From the NCBI RefSeq assembly GCF_000012285.1, contig NC_007181.1, positions 450,001 to 482,000 on the forward strand: a stretch of DNA of 32,000 bases. The letters are read 5' to 3'. This document shows positions 973-12,646 of the stretch, in pieces. The position numbers and the translations under genes are program-made. The stretch's first letter is position 1. The number at the start of each line of letters is the position of its first letter. The DNA comes from Sulfolobus acidocaldarius DSM 639. Lineage in GTDB: Archaea; Thermoproteota; Thermoprotei_A; Sulfolobales; Sulfolobaceae. Below the pieces are notes generated by a model. That model saw only the letters and a program-made list of their open reading frames with translations. It was not told the DNA's origin and searched no databases.

Positions 973-1836
973 ATGAAACCACTTCACTTGTCAGTAGGCA
1001 GGATAAACATTGATATTATAGCTAAGATTAACAAAATACCTGATATCGATGAGTTTGAAACAACAGATACACTAGAAATTTTACCAGGTGGAGCAGCAGT
1101 TAATTATGCTGTAGCTATAAACAAATTTGGTCACAGTATTAAGATTTTATCTAAGATAGGCAAAGATTCACTTGTGTCTTATGTACTAGAAAGGATAGCA
1201 GAAATGGGAGTAGGACTTGATTACGTAGAGGAAACAAACTTACCACAGAGCATGGCATTAATATTTTTGAGAGATAACGGAAGCATTTCAATGGTCAGGA
1301 AGCTAGGCTCTTCAATTCTCCTTGATAAAGAGGATATAAAGAAAGTCTTCGGGCTATTTGATGTTATACATTTTGCTTCAATTTCTCCGGATATTGTTGT
1401 TAGGGATCCTTACGCTAAACTTATAACTTATGATCCAGGTCCAAATAGTTCAAAAATTCCTGAAAATTTTGGGAATGCAGATATAATATATTTGAATGAG
1501 AGGGAAAGCACTAAGGTTAAGATAGAAAGTCTTAAAGCACGATTGATCGTAATAAAAATGGGATCGAAGGGAGCTAAAGTAATATCAGAAAATGAAGAGT
1601 GCTATTGCGAGCCATATAAAGTTCAAACTGTTTTAGATACAACAGGTGCTGGAGATGTTTTTGACGCCGCATTTAATTATGCGTATGTGCAGGGATACTC
1701 AATAGAGGATACTCTTAGATTCGCTGTAACTGCCTCTGCACTAAAAGTAATGAGAATAGGAGGGATAAATTCTCCCACTAGAGAGGAAGTTATGAATGCC
1801 TTAAATGCTTATACACCAAATACTAAATGTAAATGA
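973..1836 (+). CDS. PfkB-family carbohydrate/nucleoside kinase (ribokinase-like)
   Basis: 287 aa. The C-terminal PfkB signature DTTGAGDVFDAAF is present, along with an N-terminal GGAAVNYAVA sugar-binding region. A GAGGT Shine-Dalgarno-like motif sits at 960-964. Confidence 0.8.
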   Translation: MKPLHLSVGRINIDIIAKINKIPDIDEFETTDTLEILPGGAAVNYAVAINKFGHSIKILSKIGKDSLVSYVLERIAEMGVGLDYVEETNLPQSMALIFLRDNGSISMVRKLGSSILLDKEDIKKVFGLFDVIHFASISPDIVVRDPYAKLITYDPGPNSSKIPENFGNADIIYLNERESTKVKIESLKARLIVIKMGSKGAKVISENEECYCEPYKVQTVLDTTGAGDVFDAAFNYAYVQGYSIEDTLRFAVTASALKVMRIGGINSPTREEVMNALNAYTPNTKCK

Positions 1837-2897
1837 TAGTGATATTCGTTGATTTTGATTATTTCTTCGCACAAGTAGAGGAAGTATTAAACCCACAATA
1901 TAAGGGAAAACCACTGGTAGTTTGCGTATATTCCGGTAGAACCAAAACGAGTGGGGCTGTAGCCACCGCGAATTATGAGGCAAGAAAATTAGGAGTAAAG
2001 GCGGGAATGCCTATCATAAAAGCTATGCAGATTGCACCTAGCGCAATATATGTGCCTATGAGAAAACCGATTTATGAGGCATTCTCAAATAGGATAATGA
2101 ACTTGTTAAACAAACATGCTGATAAAATTGAAGTAGCCAGTATAGATGAGGCTTACTTAGACGTAACTAATAAAGTAGAAGGAAACTTTGAAAATGGAAT
2201 AGAATTAGCTAGGAAAATAAAGCAAGAGATACTTGAGAAAGAAAAAATAACAGTCACTGTCGGAGTCGCACCTAACAAAATTTTGGCAAAAATAATTGCT
2301 GACAAAAGCAAACCTAATGGTCTTGGTGTAATTAGACCGACAGAAGTACAAGATTTTTTGAATGAATTGGATATTGACGAAATTCCGGGAATAGGAAGTG
2401 TTTTGGCTAGGAGACTAAATGAATTAGGCATACAGAAATTGAGAGATATTCTAAGTAAAAATTACAATGAACTTGAGAAGATTACCGGAAAAGCAAAAGC
2501 CTTATATCTACTAAAGTTAGCTCAGAATAAATATAGTGAACCTGTAGAAAATAAAAGTAAAATTCCTCATGGAAGATATTTAACTTTACCCTATAACACA
2601 AGAGATGTGAAGGTTATATTACCCTACCTAAAGAAGGCTATTAATGAAGCATACAATAAGGTTAATGGTATTCCAATGAGAATAACTGTTATAGCTATTA
2701 TGGAAGATCTAGATATTCTAAGTAAGGGAAAAAAGTTTAAGCATGGAATATCTATAGATAATGCTTATAAAGTTGCTGAGGATTTACTTAGAGAGTTGCT
2801 GGTCAGAGATAAAAGAAGAAATGTACGAAGAATAGGAGTAAAATTAGATAACATAATAATCAATAAGACAAATTTATCTGATTTCTTCGACATTTAA
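1833..2897 (+). CDS. dbh: Y-family DNA polymerase IV (Dbh / DinB homolog)
   Basis: 354 aa starting MIVIFVDFDYFFAQVEEVLNP..., with SIDEAYLD catalytic motifs. From memory it appears to match S. acidocaldarius Dbh along its length. Its ATG overlaps the pfkB stop (ATGA at 1833-1836). Confidence 0.95.
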   Translation: MIVIFVDFDYFFAQVEEVLNPQYKGKPLVVCVYSGRTKTSGAVATANYEARKLGVKAGMPIIKAMQIAPSAIYVPMRKPIYEAFSNRIMNLLNKHADKIEVASIDEAYLDVTNKVEGNFENGIELARKIKQEILEKEKITVTVGVAPNKILAKIIADKSKPNGLGVIRPTEVQDFLNELDIDEIPGIGSVLARRLNELGIQKLRDILSKNYNELEKITGKAKALYLLKLAQNKYSEPVENKSKIPHGRYLTLPYNTRDVKVILPYLKKAINEAYNKVNGIPMRITVIAIMEDLDILSKGKKFKHGISIDNAYKVAEDLLRELLVRDKRRNVRRIGVKLDNIIINKTNLSDFFDI

Positions 2898-3314
2898 TTG
2901 CAACGAGTTAAGGATTTTGCTTAAATCAGGATTTCCGTACGCGTAAACGTAATTTATAAAACCTCTTACTCCCCTTTGAGAAGTATCAACGTCCTTTAAT
3001 ATCTCTATATCGAAGTAAAATGGTATCCTATCTGTAACTGACCTATTATCTATATGTATTATCTTTGATAGTTTATCCATGTCTTCTTTAATAGCACTCA
3101 CTTCAACCACTGCCTTCTTTCCTTTAATAGCAGTTATATCATTCATTATCTCATTATATTTATCCAACACCAATACAAGTCTAGCCATTCGTCCTCCTGG
3201 AACATCCTCATAAAAATTTAGTGATAGTAGATATTCCCTATTCCTAGTTATAGGCAATATTATTAATTCCTCTACTCCTAGTATGTTCACGACAGGTTTT
3301 ATTTTCACATTCAT
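2874..3314 (-). CDS. Hypothetical soluble protein (146 aa), no family recognised
   Basis: Intact ORF with a GGGGTGA Shine-Dalgarno-like motif about 7 nt upstream of the ATG. No TM segments or motifs that I can name. Its 3' end overlaps the dbh 3' end by 24 nt. Confidence 0.55.
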
Positions 3315-8629: not shown

Positions 8630-8720
8630 TGCGGCCGCCGGGATTCGAACCCGGGATTGCTGGCTTTCCACTCTAAAGAATGGGAGGCCAGCGTCCTAAT
8701 CCAGACTAGACGACGGCCGC
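8630..8720 (-). tRNA. tRNA-Gly (anticodon CCC) with a ~15-nt intron after position 37 (about 8666..8680)
   Basis: The reverse complement folds as a cloverleaf: acceptor GCGGCCG/CGGCCGC, D arm GTCT-AGTCTGGATTA-GGAC, anticodon stem CTGGC/GCCAG, T arm CCGGG-TTCGAAT-CCCGG, discriminator A. There are 22 nt between the anticodon stem halves, i.e. a 7-nt loop (CTCCCA..A) plus a 15-nt intron. CCA is not encoded. Confidence 0.9.
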
Positions 8721-8756
8721 AATATTAATATCTTTTTCAAGCCTATTTAACCTTTA

Positions 8757-8805
8757 ATGATGAAAAGAGGGTCGCATGATAGATGATGACCGCTGGAAAT
8801 ACTGA
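8757..8805 (+). ncRNA. C/D box sRNA (2'-O-methylation guide), canonical 49-nt core
   Basis: C box ATGATGA 8757-8763; 12-nt guide AAAGAGGGTCGC 8764-8775; D' ATGA 8776-8779 (degenerate); linker TAG; C' ATGATGA 8783-8789; 12-nt guide CCGCTGGAAATA 8790-8801; D CTGA 8802-8805. An AT-rich ATATTAATAT lies about 27 nt upstream. Confidence 0.65.
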
Positions 8806-8835
8806 AATAAGTATGTAATAAAGTATAAGCCGTGA

Positions 8836-8927
8836 TGCCGCCGCGGGGACTTGAACCCCGGACAACCCGGTCACTGCGAGTATTAAAAACTTCAGCCGGG
8901 CGCTCTCCCGGGCTGAGCTACGGCGGC
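8836..8927 (-). tRNA. tRNA-Phe (anticodon GAA) with an ~18-nt intron after position 37 (about 8872..8889)
   Basis: Reverse complement: acceptor GCCGCCG/CGGCGGC, D arm GCTC-AGCCCGGGA-GAGC, anticodon stem CCCGG/CCGGG, loop CTGAAG..A, T arm CGGGG-TTCAAGT-CCCCG, discriminator A. There are 25 nt between the anticodon stem halves, i.e. a 7-nt loop plus an 18-nt intron. Confidence 0.9.
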
Positions 8928-9106: not shown

Positions 9107-9649
9107 GTGCTCAGCGTGTATAAAGTTTTGCTAATTAGACTTACCAACCTAGATAATCTGATAGTAAATAGTGTAAGAACACATCTAATGAATATGGGAT
9201 TTGAGGTTGAAGTAAATGAGGAAATTTTTCATTTGAATGCTGAGTTATTTAATTGGGAAAGATGGCAGTATAATGCTGATAAATTATTACAGTTAGTTAA
9301 ACTAACCTTTGAAAGATACCCTTACGATGCCGTTATAGGTATAGGAGAAGCAGATGGTTTTTCAGATGGTCTTAATTTTGTCTTTGGTCTTTCTACGAAA
9401 AAATATGGTTTAGTTTTTCTATCCAGATTAAAGGAGGAATTTTATGGTAGAGTAATTAACTCAAGTCTGTATATAGAGAGAACTCTAAAGGAAGTTACAC
9501 ATGAATTAGGTCATACCTTAGGATTAGGTCATTGTAATAATAAGGAATGTGTTATGAACTTCAGTGTTTCAGTAGAGGATGTAGATAAAAAAGGCAAATA
9601 CTTTTGCACATCATGTTCCGATAAATTAAATATCAACAACAAATCTTAA
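9107..9649 (+). CDS. amzA: Archaemetzincin (peptidase family M54)
   Basis: HELGHTLGLGHCNNKECVMNF...CTSC matches the archaemetzincin HExxHxxGxxHC...C..C zinc motif. The start may be GTG 9107 (track) or GTG 9116; the TTTTAA at 9091-9096 fits a leaderless start at 9116. Confidence 0.85.
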   Translation: MLSVYKVLLIRLTNLDNLIVNSVRTHLMNMGFEVEVNEEIFHLNAELFNWERWQYNADKLLQLVKLTFERYPYDAVIGIGEADGFSDGLNFVFGLSTKKYGLVFLSRLKEEFYGRVINSSLYIERTLKEVTHELGHTLGLGHCNNKECVMNFSVSVEDVDKKGKYFCTSCSDKLNINNKS

Positions 9650-10045
9650 AATATAAGTTCCATCGTTCTGACTTATCAGCATCTCATGGTATGTCATTGC
9701 TTTCACTACAGTTCTCCTTTCATGTTTTTCAGGATTGAACTTTTCACCATATGCTTTGCCCTTGAGGGTCATATTGTTTAAATCTATACTAACCTTAAAT
9801 TTACCAAATAAAAGTAAATCTGAATCATAATATACGAGTAAACTTTCTATCCACCTATATAATAAGTTCTCTAAATCTGAACCTATCTCCTCTATCTCTA
9901 CCTCCACCTTATATTCTATTTTACTTGTATCAGTCATAACTTCAAAAACGGCTAGTGCTGCGCTTTCAAATGCCTCCTCTAAACTTCTACCATATGCTAT
10001 TATTCCTATATCTGCAGTGTGATCAAAGAACTCGAATCGAGTCAT
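9626..10045 (-). CDS. Archease (RtcB tRNA-ligase activator/chaperone family)
   Basis: 139 aa with the N-terminal FEFFDHTADIGI motif and C-terminal KAMTYHEM, both typical of archease. Confidence 0.85.
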   Translation of the reverse strand: MTRFEFFDHTADIGIIAYGRSLEEAFESAALAVFEVMTDTSKIEYKVEVEIEEIGSDLENLLYRWIESLLVYYDSDLLLFGKFKVSIDLNNMTLKGKAYGEKFNPEKHERRTVVKAMTYHEMLISQNDGTYILRFVVDI

Positions 10046-10145: not shown

Positions 10146-10154
10146 AAGAAAAAA
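10146..10154 (-). terminator. Oligo-T run (TTTTTTCTT on the minus strand) 5 nt after the last stop of the membrane-protein operon
   Basis: Plus strand AAGAAAAAA at 10146-10154. Archaeal transcription typically terminates at oligo-T tracts. The call rests on position only. Confidence 0.4.
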
Positions 10155-10158
10155 GCTT

Positions 10159-10317
10159 CTACTGGTGAACAAACCGCTCAAAGATAATTTTTACGACTAT
10201 ATAAATTATAACAGCTACAGTTATACCACTTACTAAAATTTGAACGTTTTTAGTGTAAATATACACTAGTATTGAATTTAAAAGTAATAACATACTGACT
10301 AAAAGATAAGACTTCAT
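10159..10317 (-). CDS. Small two-TM membrane protein (52 aa), third gene of the Ced-like operon (CedA1 or CedA2; name assignment uncertain)
   Basis: Not in the ORF track (<60 aa). Manual translation gives MKSYLLVSMLLLLNSILVYIYTKNVQILVSGITVAVIIYIVVKIIFERFVHQ*. A GGTGA Shine-Dalgarno motif lies 5 nt upstream of the ATG, in the 15-nt gap after the 260-aa gene. Confidence 0.6.
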   Translation of the reverse strand: MKSYLLVSMLLLLNSILVYIYTKNVQILVSGITVAVIIYIVVKIIFERFVHQ

Positions 10318-10332
10318 TGTTCTCACCGTTTC

Positions 10333-11115
10333 CTAAAATACGTCAATTATTAATGGTAATCTACTACCGTAGCCTGATACTAGACTAGCAACGCCCATAC
10401 TAAAGCCTACTAGTATAAAAATATAAATAACGGGACCTATTACGAGAGATGTAATGATAGATGGTACTACATGCACATAATAATCAATAATTGCACTGGC
10501 ATTCTGTGGAGGAGTGTTCAGTTCTTGTGTAGGAAGCATTTGGAAAGCTGCTAGAAATTGAGGCAAATATGGTAAACCTACATAAAAGACTATACCACTT
10601 CCTATAAAGGCACCACCTACACTTCTTCCTATTCTAAATGGTATGGACAAAAATAATACTCCTGTCGCAATAAACACAGCCACGTATTGATATACTATTT
10701 TAGAGACAGCTATAAGCGTTGAAGTAAATGTTAGTGCAGAAGTGATTACAGTTAGAAGAGCACCAAATGGTACTACTTGAATTAAAGCTGAAACTTCAGG
10801 TACTGCATTACTGGCAGTTAATATTGTTTTAACCATTAGATAGAGAGATTGTTCTATGTATAGAATATTGTTTAACCAACTAAAATAGCCGTCCCAGGTA
10901 ACACCGAGAAGAGAGAGTAATTCCCCAAGGAACAATAGAACACCTAAATATATAGAATTCCATACAACTACGTAAATTGAGTCAGTAATCAGTCTCGGTG
11001 CCCATTTTTTTACACCGTATACAGGTACTGGTAATGCGTAAATTGCAGCACCAATAAAATAAGTCAATGACGCTAATAACTGTGAATAAAATAAAAGTTG
11101 AAAAGGATTTAGCAT
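10333..11115 (-). CDS. cedA: Polytopic membrane protein (6-7 TM), VirB6/TrbL-like; probable CedA of the crenarchaeal DNA-import (Ced) system
   Basis: 260 aa, hydrophobic almost throughout, with no soluble domain. Its start codon abuts the stop of the upstream 78-aa gene (TGAATG). The position next to cmk in an S. acidocaldarius-type context matches my recollection of cedA. No search was run. Confidence 0.65.
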   Translation of the reverse strand: MLNPFQLLFYSQLLASLTYFIGAAIYALPVPVYGVKKWAPRLITDSIYVVVWNSIYLGVLLFLGELLSLLGVTWDGYFSWLNNILYIEQSLYLMVKTILTASNAVPEVSALIQVVPFGALLTVITSALTFTSTLIAVSKIVYQYVAVFIATGVLFLSIPFRIGRSVGGAFIGSGIVFYVGLPYLPQFLAAFQMLPTQELNTPPQNASAIIDYYVHVVPSIITSLVIGPVIYIFILVGFSMGVASLVSGYGSRLPLIIDVF

Positions 11116-11352
11116 TCATGACACCTGAGAAGCTATATAAGATATTAGATAGAATATCGTACTTCCTATTGCGAGAAAGAACGCAGCTATTATAGCGTCT
11201 TCTAATAAGTCTTGTCCTCCTCTTTTTATCCTGAAAATAGGTATAGGCGATCCTCTAAGAGCCCAACCTATAGCCCATGCCAATATAAATAAACTCCAAC
11301 CTATCTCTGTAACTGTACTTGTTAAATTTTCAATAAAGGTTACAAGGGTCAT
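11116..11352 (-). CDS. Small two-helix membrane protein (78 aa), VirB2/TrbC pilin-like architecture; first gene of the Ced-like operon (CedA1 or CedA2)
   Basis: MTLVTFIENLTSTVTEIG-[WSLFILAWAIGWAL]-RGSPIPIFRIKRGGQD-[LLEDAIIAAFFLAIGSTIFYLISYIA]SQVS: two hydrophobic helices joined by a basic loop. Confidence 0.6.
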   Translation of the reverse strand: MTLVTFIENLTSTVTEIGWSLFILAWAIGWALRGSPIPIFRIKRGGQDLLEDAIIAAFFLAIGSTIFYLISYIASQVS

Positions 11353-11361
11353 TTATCATTC

Positions 11362-11380
11362 AGGATAAATATTTAATAAA
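11362..11380 (-). promoter_or_regulatory. TATA-like element (TTTATTAAATATTTAT, minus strand) for the membrane-protein operon
   Basis: It occupies -28 to about -13 relative to the ATG at 11352, starting immediately after the cmk stop codon. This suggests an independent, near-leaderless promoter. Confidence 0.35.
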
Positions 11381-11929
11381 TCAATGGGACAGAGCCGAGT
11401 GTAAGTTTTTACGTGAGATAACTCCTAATATGATATCTGCAACATCCTCCGGTAATAAGTAGCTTGTATTTATTACTAGGTCGAAAACCGACAAGTCTAA
11501 TATGTCTATACCATAATATCTCAAAAACCTTTCCCTATGACTCCTCTCACGTTTTATAATTTGAATTATTGCCTCGTCTTCAGAAATATGATCTCTGCTA
11601 GCTATTCTCTTGGCTCTAACATCAAGAGGAGCCCTTAAATATATAGAGAGATCAGATAGATTATGAAACAACCAACCTCCTATATGGGACTCGATTATTA
11701 CATTGTCTTGACTTTTAATTAATTTGAACATCTCTAAATCTATTTTTTTATCTATTTCGAAATCGTCTTCAGCTAACTTATTTAATTTTACAATATCTAT
11801 GTTCATCCGCTTAGCTAGATCTCTAAAAATTAAACCCGCTGATACGTATTTAATTGAAAGCTTTGATGATAATATTTTTGCTACAGAAGATTTACCGCTA
11901 CCAGGCGGACCACTTATTATAATTTTCAT
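11381..11929 (-). CDS. cmk: Cytidylate kinase (archaeal type)
   Basis: 182 aa with P-loop [12 protein letters not shown]. Length and position after rpl34e are as in the conserved archaeal cluster. Confidence 0.85.
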
Positions 11930-12211: not shown

Positions 12212-12646
12212 TTAAATAAGCTTTGGTCTTCTCAACGATAGAGGAGTAAATACCAAAAATGATACTATGTAAACAATTAATGTACTTATAGCTGGTTTAC
12301 CGCCTACAGCAGCTGTTAATGGTGACTCATAGGGAAAATATACATATGGTGGCACTATCAAGTATAAAATGAGGAATAACCCCACTATGTAAGTGGCCAT
12401 CATAAGCATAGATTGCAAAAACATGTAGCCACGAAGCTTAGATTCATATACGTTTAATTCTTTTGAAACACTCTTCATAGCTTTACTTCTCCTTTTAGGA
12501 GAAGAAATAGAAGAAATTCTTTGTTCATACTTCTTAATATATTCAATAGTACTCTTCATCCTCGATTGAAGATAGAACCTGTATGCCAAATAGACTATCA
12601 TATTTAAAACGAAAGATATACCAATTATGTAAAAAATTGTTATCAT
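12212..12646 (-). CDS. DUF106 / EMC3-TMCO1-like membrane protein (archaeal Oxa1-superfamily insertase candidate)
   Basis: 144 aa with the order TM1, then a ~55-aa K/R-rich predicted coiled-coil hairpin, then TM2 and TM3. It occupies the conserved slot between adk and rpl34e. Confidence 0.55.
   Translation of the reverse strand: MITIFYIIGISFVLNMIVYLAYRFYLQSRMKSTIEYIKKYEQRISSISSPKRRSKAMKSVSKELNVYESKLRGYMFLQSMLMMATYIVGLFLILYLIVPPYVYFPYESPLTAAVGGKPAISTLIVYIVSFLVFTPLSLRRPKLI

What the first reader, a model, noticed from the sequence alone, without database searches (positions are those of the whole stretch)
10146..11380. Three-gene all-membrane operon appended to the SecY-Adk-Cmk cluster: T4SS-like DNA-transfer (Ced-type) module
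Seen in sequence:
- Three consecutive minus-strand ORFs encode only hydrophobic proteins: 78 aa with 2 helices, 260 aa with 6-7 TM, and 52 aa with 2 TM (absent from the ORF track).
- They are packed as one unit. The first junction is TGAATG with zero gap at 11115/11116. The second is a 15-nt gap carrying a GGTGA Shine-Dalgarno motif.
- The unit has its own A/T-rich TATA-like element in the 28-nt gap after the cmk stop, and an oligo-T run 5 nt after the last stop.
- There is no soluble domain, ATPase or enzymatic motif.

Established knowledge (from memory, unverified): in S. acidocaldarius a polytopic membrane protein flanked by two two-TM mini-proteins next to cmk (locus tags around Saci_0567-0569) was characterised as CedA/CedA1/CedA2. 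These form the membrane part of the Crenarchaeal exchange-of-DNA system, which imports DNA between UV-aggregated cells. Later structural work related these components to bacterial conjugation parts (VirB6-like channel, VirB2-like pilin). The VirB4/HerA-like ATPase CedB is encoded elsewhere, which is consistent with no ATPase here.

Inference: this locus is that module. It is housekeeping-embedded, lacks mobile-element context, and would be annotated as 'hypothetical membrane proteins' by standard pipelines.
Basis: partly seen in the sequence, partly recalled or inferred. Interest (0 to 1): 0.88.

Follow-up and report, generated by a model that had tools for sequence, protein, structure and literature searches.

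The report
Known Sulfolobus Ced DNA-import genes

Summary
Three packed minus-strand ORFs encode hydrophobic proteins of 78, 260 and 52 aa. The junctions are TGAATG and a 15-nt gap holding GGTGA. A 28-nt A/T-rich gap follows cmk, and a T6 run follows the last stop.

All three proteins score above the curated cut-offs of the NCBIfam equivalog models for CedA1, CedA and CedA2. They are also letter-for-letter identical to the S. acidocaldarius proteins named CedA1 (AAY79961.1), CedA (AAY79960.1) and CedA2 (AAY79959.1). The window is therefore S. acidocaldarius itself, and this is the locus saci_0569-0567 on which the Ced system was defined experimentally.

CedA1 matches the solved A. pernix CedA1 conjugation-like pilus (PDB 8DFU, E 9e-22). 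The gene order SecY-Adk-TM protein-L34e-Cmk-CedA1-CedA-CedA2-archease is kept in four other Sulfolobaceae genomes.

The VirB6 likeness of CedA could not be shown significantly with my tools. TrwI/VirB6 is only the best-looking of many non-significant fold hits, so that point rests on published profile comparisons.

Verdict: already known, low interest.

The parts
11116..11352 (-). cedA1 (saci_0569), 78 aa. Two-helix hairpin, VirB2-like Ced pilin or pseudopilin.
   Evidence: NF041797 Ced_CedA1: 131.2 bits against a cut-off of 100. Identical to AAY79961.1, CEDA1_SULAC. PDB 8DFU A. pernix pilin: E 9.4e-22 over residues 3-75. 63-72% identical in L001-L004.
10333..11115 (-). cedA (saci_0568), 260 aa. 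Polytopic membrane protein, proposed VirB6-like DNA channel.
   Evidence: NF041796 Ced_CedA: 338.8 bits against a cut-off of 330, full length 1-259/259. Identical to AAY79960.1, CEDA_SULAC. AF2 model pLDDT 82.6, all-helical. The N-terminal hairpin is homologous to CedA1.
10159..10317 (-). cedA2 (saci_0567), 52 aa from the ATG. Two-TM mini-protein.
   Evidence: NF041798 Ced_CedA2: 98 bits against a cut-off of 80. The 52-aa form is identical to AAY79959.1 / WP_011277461.1, and the 55-aa GTG form is not in the collection.
11353..11380 (-). 28-nt cmk-cedA1 spacer. TTTATTAAAT lies at -28..-19 from the ATG. Inferred TATA box of a leaderless or short-leader UV-inducible transcript.
   Evidence: Sequence read directly. 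The function is inferred. Separate regulation from the upstream cluster is suggested by published UV induction of cedA1 and cedA2, while secY serves as the housekeeping control (PMC6101591).
10323..10327 (-). GGTGA Shine-Dalgarno-like motif ahead of cedA2, inside the 15-nt spacer.
   Evidence: Sequence read directly. The function is inferred.
10149..10154 (-). T6 run starting 5 nt after the cedA2 stop. Inferred archaeal oligo-T terminator.
   Evidence: Sequence read directly. The function is inferred from general knowledge of archaeal termination at oligo-T.
11381..11929 (-). cmk, archaeal (d)CMP kinase. Upstream neighbour, context only.
   Evidence: TIGR02173: 201.9 bits against a cut-off of 102.1.
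9626..10045 (-). Archease-family protein. Downstream neighbour, context only.
   Evidence: NF001617: 213.7 bits against a cut-off of 126. Conserved downstream of cedA2 in L001-L004.

Best explanation
This is the cedA1-cedA-cedA2 operon of Sulfolobus acidocaldarius (saci_0569, saci_0568, saci_0567). It encodes the membrane and pilin part of the Ced system (Crenarchaeal exchange of DNA), a chromosomally domesticated relative of type IV secretion / conjugation machinery.

Shown here: the identity of all three proteins, the packing of the genes, the conserved gene order, and the homology of CedA1 to a solved conjugation-like pilin.

Taken from published experiments: after UV damage the genes are induced in a TFB3-dependent way. 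Ups pili aggregate the cells. CedA (polytopic, VirB6-like) forms the channel in the recipient membrane. CedA1, and probably CedA2, form a VirB2-like pilus or pseudopilus. [quoted passage not shown] Deleting cedA, cedA1 or cedA2 abolishes DNA exchange.

Inferred from the sequence only: transcription starts from a TATA-like element in the 28-nt spacer after cmk; cedA is translationally coupled to cedA1 (TGAATG); cedA2 initiates from an SD-like GGTGA; transcription ends at the T6 run.
For: - NCBIfam equivalog hits are above cut-off for all three proteins.
- All three are identical in sequence to S. acidocaldarius CedA1, CedA and CedA2.
- The window's Adk is 100% identical over 194 aa to PDB 1NKS.
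- CedA1 hits the A. pernix CedA1 pilus 8DFU at E 9.4e-22.
- The CedA profile's N-terminus hits the same pilin at E 2.8e-6.
- The order cmk-cedA1-cedA-cedA2-archease is conserved in Metallosphaera, Acidianus and two Sulfolobaceae MAGs.
- All 21 CedA homologues found come from Sulfolobaceae-type sources and carry one Pfam family, PF27251.
- No transporter or permease family is hit by sequence or by fold.
- Literature: locus tags and deletion phenotypes (PMC11823120); pilus structure and T4SS homology (PMC9905601); UV/TFB3 induction (PMC6101591); import-only role of CedA in S. islandicus (PMC11868833).
Against: Nothing argues against the identification. Several points of mechanism remain weak or open:
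- The VirB6 relationship of CedA is not significant in my own tests. No Pfam TrbL/VirB6 hit appears at E <= 1, and Foldseek gives TrwI/VirB6 7o3v_J only at E 0.79, probability 0.57, TM 0.38.
- CedA2 has no detectable similarity to CedA1 or to any PDB chain.
- Ced pili have never been seen in Sulfolobales.
- The promoter and terminator assignments are inferred from sequence only.
- The known DNA-damage element A(N)TTTC is absent from the 200 nt upstream of cedA1.
Confidence: 0.97

Rival explanations
1. The three genes encode an unrelated small-molecule transporter or permease with two accessory subunits, and are merely adjacent to cmk.
For: All three proteins are purely hydrophobic and lack soluble domains. 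My fold search gave no significant match to anything, VirB6 included.
Against: The proteins are identical to the experimentally characterised CedA1, CedA and CedA2 and score above the equivalog cut-offs. CedA1 is homologous to a solved pilin. No transporter family is hit by Pfam or NCBIfam or Foldseek. Published deletions abolish DNA exchange.
Confidence: 0.01
2. The module is part of a conjugative mobile element (a DNA-exporting T4SS of an integrated plasmid) and not a host DNA-import system.
For: The homology is to conjugation components: VirB2-like CedA1 and the published VirB6-like CedA. In S. islandicus, CedA1 and the paralogue CedE also affect export.
Against: The surrounding 32 kb is housekeeping only. 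It holds ribosomal proteins, SecY, Adk, Cmk, IleRS, Dbh, tRNAs and archease, with no integrase, relaxase or VirB4. The position is the same in five Sulfolobaceae genomes. Published assays show that cedA is needed in the recipient for import and not for export.
Confidence: 0.01
3. In Sulfolobales, CedA1 and CedA2 do not build an extended pilus. They act as membrane-embedded subunits or a short pseudopilus of the CedA channel. This is a variant of the main mechanism and not a different identity.
For: Ced pili have never been observed in S. acidocaldarius, and cell contact is made by Ups pili. The authors themselves propose pseudopili. CedA1 and CedA2 were reported to form a membrane complex with CedA.
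Against: CedA1 matches the A. pernix pilus subunit over nearly its whole length (residues 3-75, E 9.4e-22), so its ability to polymerise is probably kept.
Confidence: 0.45

Closest known systems
Ced system of Sulfolobus acidocaldarius: CedA1/CedA/CedA2, saci_0569-0567 (van Wolferen et al. 2016; Recalde et al. 2025, PMC11823120)
   Same: Identical protein sequences, the same gene order, and the same neighbours cmk and archease. This is that locus.
   Different: Nothing differs.
A. pernix CedA1 pilus (PDB 8DFU) and the Ted system of Thermoproteales, TedA/TedB/TedC (Beltran et al. 2023, PMC9905601)
   Same: CedA1 aligns with the 8DFU pilin over residues 3-75 at E 9.4e-22. It has the same two-helix hairpin and no signal peptide.
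   Different: CedA2 has no counterpart in A. pernix or in Ted. TedC has a cleaved signal peptide. Ted components show no sequence similarity to Ced. No pilus has been seen in Sulfolobales.
Bacterial type IV secretion / conjugation inner-membrane parts: VirB6/TrbL (e.g. TrwI of R388, PDB 7o3v) and VirB2 pilin
   Same: CedA is a polytopic helical membrane protein of about 260 aa, paired with a small two-helix pilin and a VirB4-like ATPase. Its N-terminal hairpin resembles the pilin, as reported for VirB6 and VirB2. TrwI/VirB6 has the highest probability and TM-score among my Foldseek hits.
   Different: DNA moves inward (import), and the cargo is chromosomal DNA. There is no relaxase, VirB3, VirB8 or outer-membrane complex. 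The genes are chromosomal and syntenic, not on a mobile element. No Pfam TrbL/VirB6 match was found, and the fold match is not significant (E 0.79, TM 0.38).
CedE (NF053657), a CedA paralogue described in S. islandicus (PMC11868833)
   Same: The window's CedA hits the CedE model over its full length (164.8 bits), so the two families are paralogous.
   Different: The score is far below the CedE cut-off of 400, while the CedA model is passed. CedE is encoded elsewhere and is reported to act in both import and export.

Membership tests
Ced DNA-import system (Sulfolobales) | CedA: polytopic membrane protein of about 260 aa matching the CedA equivalog model | tested here: met
   NF041796: 338.8 bits against a cut-off of 330, model positions 1-259/259. 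Identical to CEDA_SULAC / AAY79960.1.
Ced DNA-import system (Sulfolobales) | CedA1: two-helix protein of about 75-80 aa matching the CedA1 equivalog model and the solved Ced pilin | tested here: met
   NF041797: 131.2 bits against a cut-off of 100. Identical to AAY79961.1. PDB 8DFU at E 9.4e-22.
Ced DNA-import system (Sulfolobales) | CedA2: two-TM protein of about 50 aa matching the CedA2 equivalog model | tested here: met
   NF041798: 98 bits against a cut-off of 80. Identical to AAY79959.1 / WP_011277461.1.
Ced DNA-import system (Sulfolobales) | The three genes form one unit, conserved in order in related genomes | tested here: met
   cmk-cedA1-cedA-cedA2-archease is found in L001 (Metallosphaera javensis), L003 (Ca. 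Acidianus copahuensis), and L002 and L004 (Sulfolobaceae MAGs).
Ced DNA-import system (Sulfolobales) | A VirB4/HerA-like ATPase CedB (and CedD) encoded in the same genome | not testable with these tools
   Only a 32-kb window is available, and none of the 25 proteins scanned in it is an ATPase of that kind. The literature places cedB at saci_0748 and cedD at saci_0667 in this organism.
Ced DNA-import system (Sulfolobales) | UV/DNA-damage induction, and loss of DNA import on deletion | not testable with these tools
   Experimental. Published for this very locus: induction above 4-fold that depends on TFB3, and no recombinants from crosses of two cedA, two cedA1 or two cedA2 deletion strains.
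VirB6/TrbL family (T4SS inner-membrane channel) | Sequence-profile match to Pfam TrbL/VirB6 | tested here: not met
   hmmscan of CedA against Pfam-A at E <= 1 returned only a spurious SLATT_fungal hit. The profile search of PDB found no VirB6 chain.
VirB6/TrbL family (T4SS inner-membrane channel) | Fold similarity to a solved VirB6 (TrwI, 7o3v) | tested here: inconclusive
VirB2-like conjugative pilins | Homology to a pilin whose filament structure is conjugative-pilus-like | tested here: met
   CedA1 against the 8DFU pilin: E 9.4e-22. The structural equivalence of 8DFU to bacterial conjugative pili comes from PMC9905601. For CedA2 there is only a sub-threshold TraA hit (TIGR02758, E 0.017, 15.4 bits against a cut-off of 76.55).

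The most novel reading that the evidence does not exclude
The one point not already settled in the literature concerns regulation. In S. acidocaldarius the cedA1 promoter has been squeezed into a 28-nt spacer and lacks the Orc1-2/DDRE hexamer A(N)TTTC. Two of four related loci carry that hexamer at exactly -52 from cedA1. UV induction here may therefore run through a different, still unidentified regulator or element lying inside the 3' end of cmk. A second open possibility is that CedA2, which is restricted to Sulfolobaceae and has no detectable homologue in any solved structure, is a divergent second VirB2-like pilin.
Probability: 0.3. Interest if true: 0.3.

Novelty: already known. Interest (0 to 1): 0.08.

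Why it matters
The Ced system is biologically notable. It is a domesticated conjugation-type machine that imports chromosomal DNA for repair in hyperthermophilic archaea. This locus, however, is the very one on which the system was defined, in the model strain, and current NCBI models already name all three genes.

Tried and rejected
- Pfam-A scan of the three proteins gave nothing above threshold. The local copy lacks PF27251, which the precomputed tables assign to every CedA homologue.
- The genome-contig scan with CedA did not return the source genome itself, only four relatives at 36-43% identity. The organism was identified instead through the exact-sequence look-up and the Adk match to PDB 1NKS.
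- The profile of 20 CedA homologues against PDB sequences found only the CedA1 pilin and no VirB6.
- CedA2 against PDB and against CedA1 showed no similarity at all.
- The search for the DNA-damage hexamer A(N)TTTC upstream of cedA1 found none on either strand within 200 nt. This agrees with Le et al. 2017.
- The founding paper (van Wolferen 2016, PMC4780597) is not held in the library, so its content is cited only through later papers.
- ARAGORN found no tRNA in the window, whereas Rfam found two.

Full report
**1. Observation**

The region holds three consecutive minus-strand ORFs:
- 11352..11116, 78 aa.
- 11115..10333, 260 aa.
- 10326..10159, 55 aa from a GTG, or 52 aa from the ATG at 10317.

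- The cmk stop TGA is followed by a 28-nt A/T-rich spacer (TTTATTAAATATTTATCCTGAATGATAA) and the first ATG.
- The first stop and the second start abut as TGAATG at 11116/11115.
- The second stop is followed by GAAACGGTGAGAACA (15 nt, containing GGTGA) and the ATG of the third gene.
- The last stop TAG is followed by AAGC and then TTTTTT at 10154-10149.

All three products are strongly hydrophobic. GRAVY is 0.93, 1.08 and 1.40, with 9, 16 and 5 charged residues. Pfam finds no enzymatic or ATPase domain in any of them. An AlphaFold2 model of the 260-aa protein, built on 20 homologues, has mean pLDDT 82.6 and pTM 0.76. It is entirely helical, with six long helices and two short ones, which fits 6-7 membrane spans.

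**2. Identity**

NCBIfam equivalog models name all three proteins above their curated cut-offs:

| Protein | Model | Bits | Cut-off |
|---|---|---|---|
| 78 aa | CedA1 (NF041797) | 131.2 | 100 |
| 260 aa | CedA (NF041796) | 338.8 | 330 |
| third protein | CedA2 (NF041798) | 98.0 | 80 |

The CedA match covers the model end to end. The CedA2 match starts at residue 4 of the GTG form, which is the ATG.

An exact-sequence look-up shows the three proteins are letter-for-letter the S. acidocaldarius entries 'DNA import protein CedA1' (AAY79961.1, CEDA1_SULAC), 'CedA' (AAY79960.1, CEDA_SULAC) and 'CedA2' (AAY79959.1, WP_011277461.1). The 55-aa GTG form is not in the collection, so the 52-aa ATG start is the accepted one.

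The adenylate kinase two genes upstream is 100% identical over 194 residues to PDB 1NKS. From my own knowledge, 1NKS is the S. acidocaldarius enzyme. The window (35.6% G+C) is therefore S. acidocaldarius. The locus is saci_0569 (cedA1), saci_0568 (cedA) and saci_0567 (cedA2), as tabulated in PMC11823120.

**3. Context**

The neighbours on the same strand are:
- upstream: SecY, Adk, a 144-aa membrane protein, L34e and Cmk;
- downstream: an archease-family protein.

The remaining scanned ORFs of the 32 kb are housekeeping or have no family match. They include ribosomal proteins, IleRS, isopropylmalate-type dehydrogenase, Dbh/DNA polymerase IV, RNA 3'-phosphate cyclase, Taw21 and archaemetzincin. 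Two tRNAs and a C/D-box sRNA are also present. None of the 25 proteins scanned is a VirB4/HerA-like ATPase, an integrase or a relaxase.

tblastn of the window proteins against four related loci shows the same order in every one: SecY-Adk-TM144-L34e-Cmk-CedA1-CedA-CedA2-archease. The loci are Metallosphaera javensis, Ca. Acidianus copahuensis and two Sulfolobaceae MAGs. CedA1 is much better conserved (63-72% identity) than CedA (36-43%) or CedA2 (36-44%).

**4. How it works**

Shown here:
- CedA1 is homologous over nearly its whole length to the A. pernix pilin of PDB 8DFU (E 9.4e-22).
- The N-terminal hairpin of CedA is homologous to CedA1. This appears as cross-hits of the NCBIfam models, a BLASTP E of 3e-5, and the CedA profile hitting 8DFU at E 2.8e-6. 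It reproduces a remark in PMC9905601.

From published experiments on this locus and its orthologues:
- The genes are induced more than 4-fold after UV, in a TFB3-dependent manner (PMC6101591).
- Deletion of cedA, cedA1 or cedA2 abolishes recombinant formation without affecting aggregation (PMC11823120).
- CedA is needed for import, not export.
[quoted passage not shown] CedA/TedA are related to VirB6, and CedB to VirB4 (PMC9905601).
- CedD (saci_0667) and CedE are additional components.

Inferred from the sequence only:
- A TATA-like TTTATTAAAT at -28..-19 drives a leaderless or short-leader transcript.
- cedA is translationally coupled to cedA1.
- cedA2 initiates from the SD-like motif.
- Transcription terminates at the T6 run.

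**5. Tests that did not add support**

The VirB6 relationship is therefore consistent with my data but not independently demonstrated by it. It rests on the published HHpred chain CedA-TedA-VirB6 and on published superpositions.

CedA2 shows no similarity to CedA1 or to any PDB chain. It has only a sub-threshold hit to the F-type TraA pilin model (E 0.017).

**6. Regulation**

The DNA-damage element A(N)TTTC, bound by Orc1-2 in S. islandicus, includes the cedA1 promoter there among its targets (PMC6061795). In this window it is absent on both strands from the 200 nt upstream of cedA1. This matches the statement of Le et al. 2017 that the ced loci of S. acidocaldarius lack it (PMC5817253). In two of the four related loci the hexamer sits at exactly -52 from cedA1. 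This is a small, already recognised open question.

**7. Verdict**

Three corrections apply:
- Current NCBI models name these genes.
- CedA1 is a pilin and not merely a membrane subunit.
- CedD and CedE have since been added to the system.

The locus is the type example of a known system in the model organism. It is already known and of low interest as a finding.

Noticed in passing
window 8630-8927: Rfam finds two tRNA genes of 91-92 nt on the minus strand (8630-8720 and 8836-8927), presumably intron-containing. ARAGORN missed both. They flank a C/D-box sRNA, sR20, on the plus strand (8753-8807, 66.8 bits against a gathering score of 44).
   Followed up: no
window 11353-11552; L002 and L004 upstream of cedA1: There is no A(N)TTTC DNA-damage hexamer on either strand within 200 nt upstream of cedA1 in this window. 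This agrees with Le et al. 2017. In L002 and L004 the hexamer sits at exactly -52 from the cedA1 ATG, and in those relatives the cmk-cedA1 spacer is about 60-75 nt instead of 28 nt.
   Followed up: partly
window 10333-11115 compared with 11116-11352: The N-terminal two-helix hairpin of CedA (about residues 7-69) is homologous to the whole CedA1 pilin: NCBIfam cross-hits, BLASTP E 3e-5, and the CedA profile against 8DFU at E 2.8e-6. This reproduces a published remark that the channel and the pilin share ancestry.
   Followed up: yes
L001-L004 compared with window 10159-11352: Conservation within the operon is uneven. The CedA1 pilin is 63-72% identical across Sulfolobaceae genera, while CedA is only 36-43% and CedA2 36-44%.
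   Followed up: no
window 12212-12646 (-): A 144-aa membrane protein lies between adk and rpl34e. It is conserved in that position in all four related loci (34-42% identity) but matches no Pfam or NCBIfam family above threshold.
   Followed up: no
window 1833-2897 (+): A Y-family translesion DNA polymerase (DNA polymerase IV / Dbh type, NF002292, 598 bits) lies about 7 kb beyond the 3' end of the ced operon. No functional link was examined.
   Followed up: no
window 10159-10317 (-): CedA2 gives a weak, sub-threshold hit to the F-type conjugative pilin model TraA (TIGR02758, E 0.017, 15.4 bits against a cut-off of 76.55). It shows no similarity to CedA1 or to any PDB chain.
   Followed up: partly
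window 2874-3314 (-), 26159-26911 (-), 31139-31741 (-): Three ORFs of 146, 250 and 200 aa have no NCBIfam match at E <= 1e-10.
   Followed up: no
CedA homologues P0003, P0006-P0025: All CedA homologues carry a precomputed Pfam family, PF27251, that is absent from the local Pfam-A copy. This explains the empty Pfam result for CedA. Older GenBank records (strain SUSAZ, Sulfurisphaera javensis) still label the protein hypothetical.
   Followed up: no
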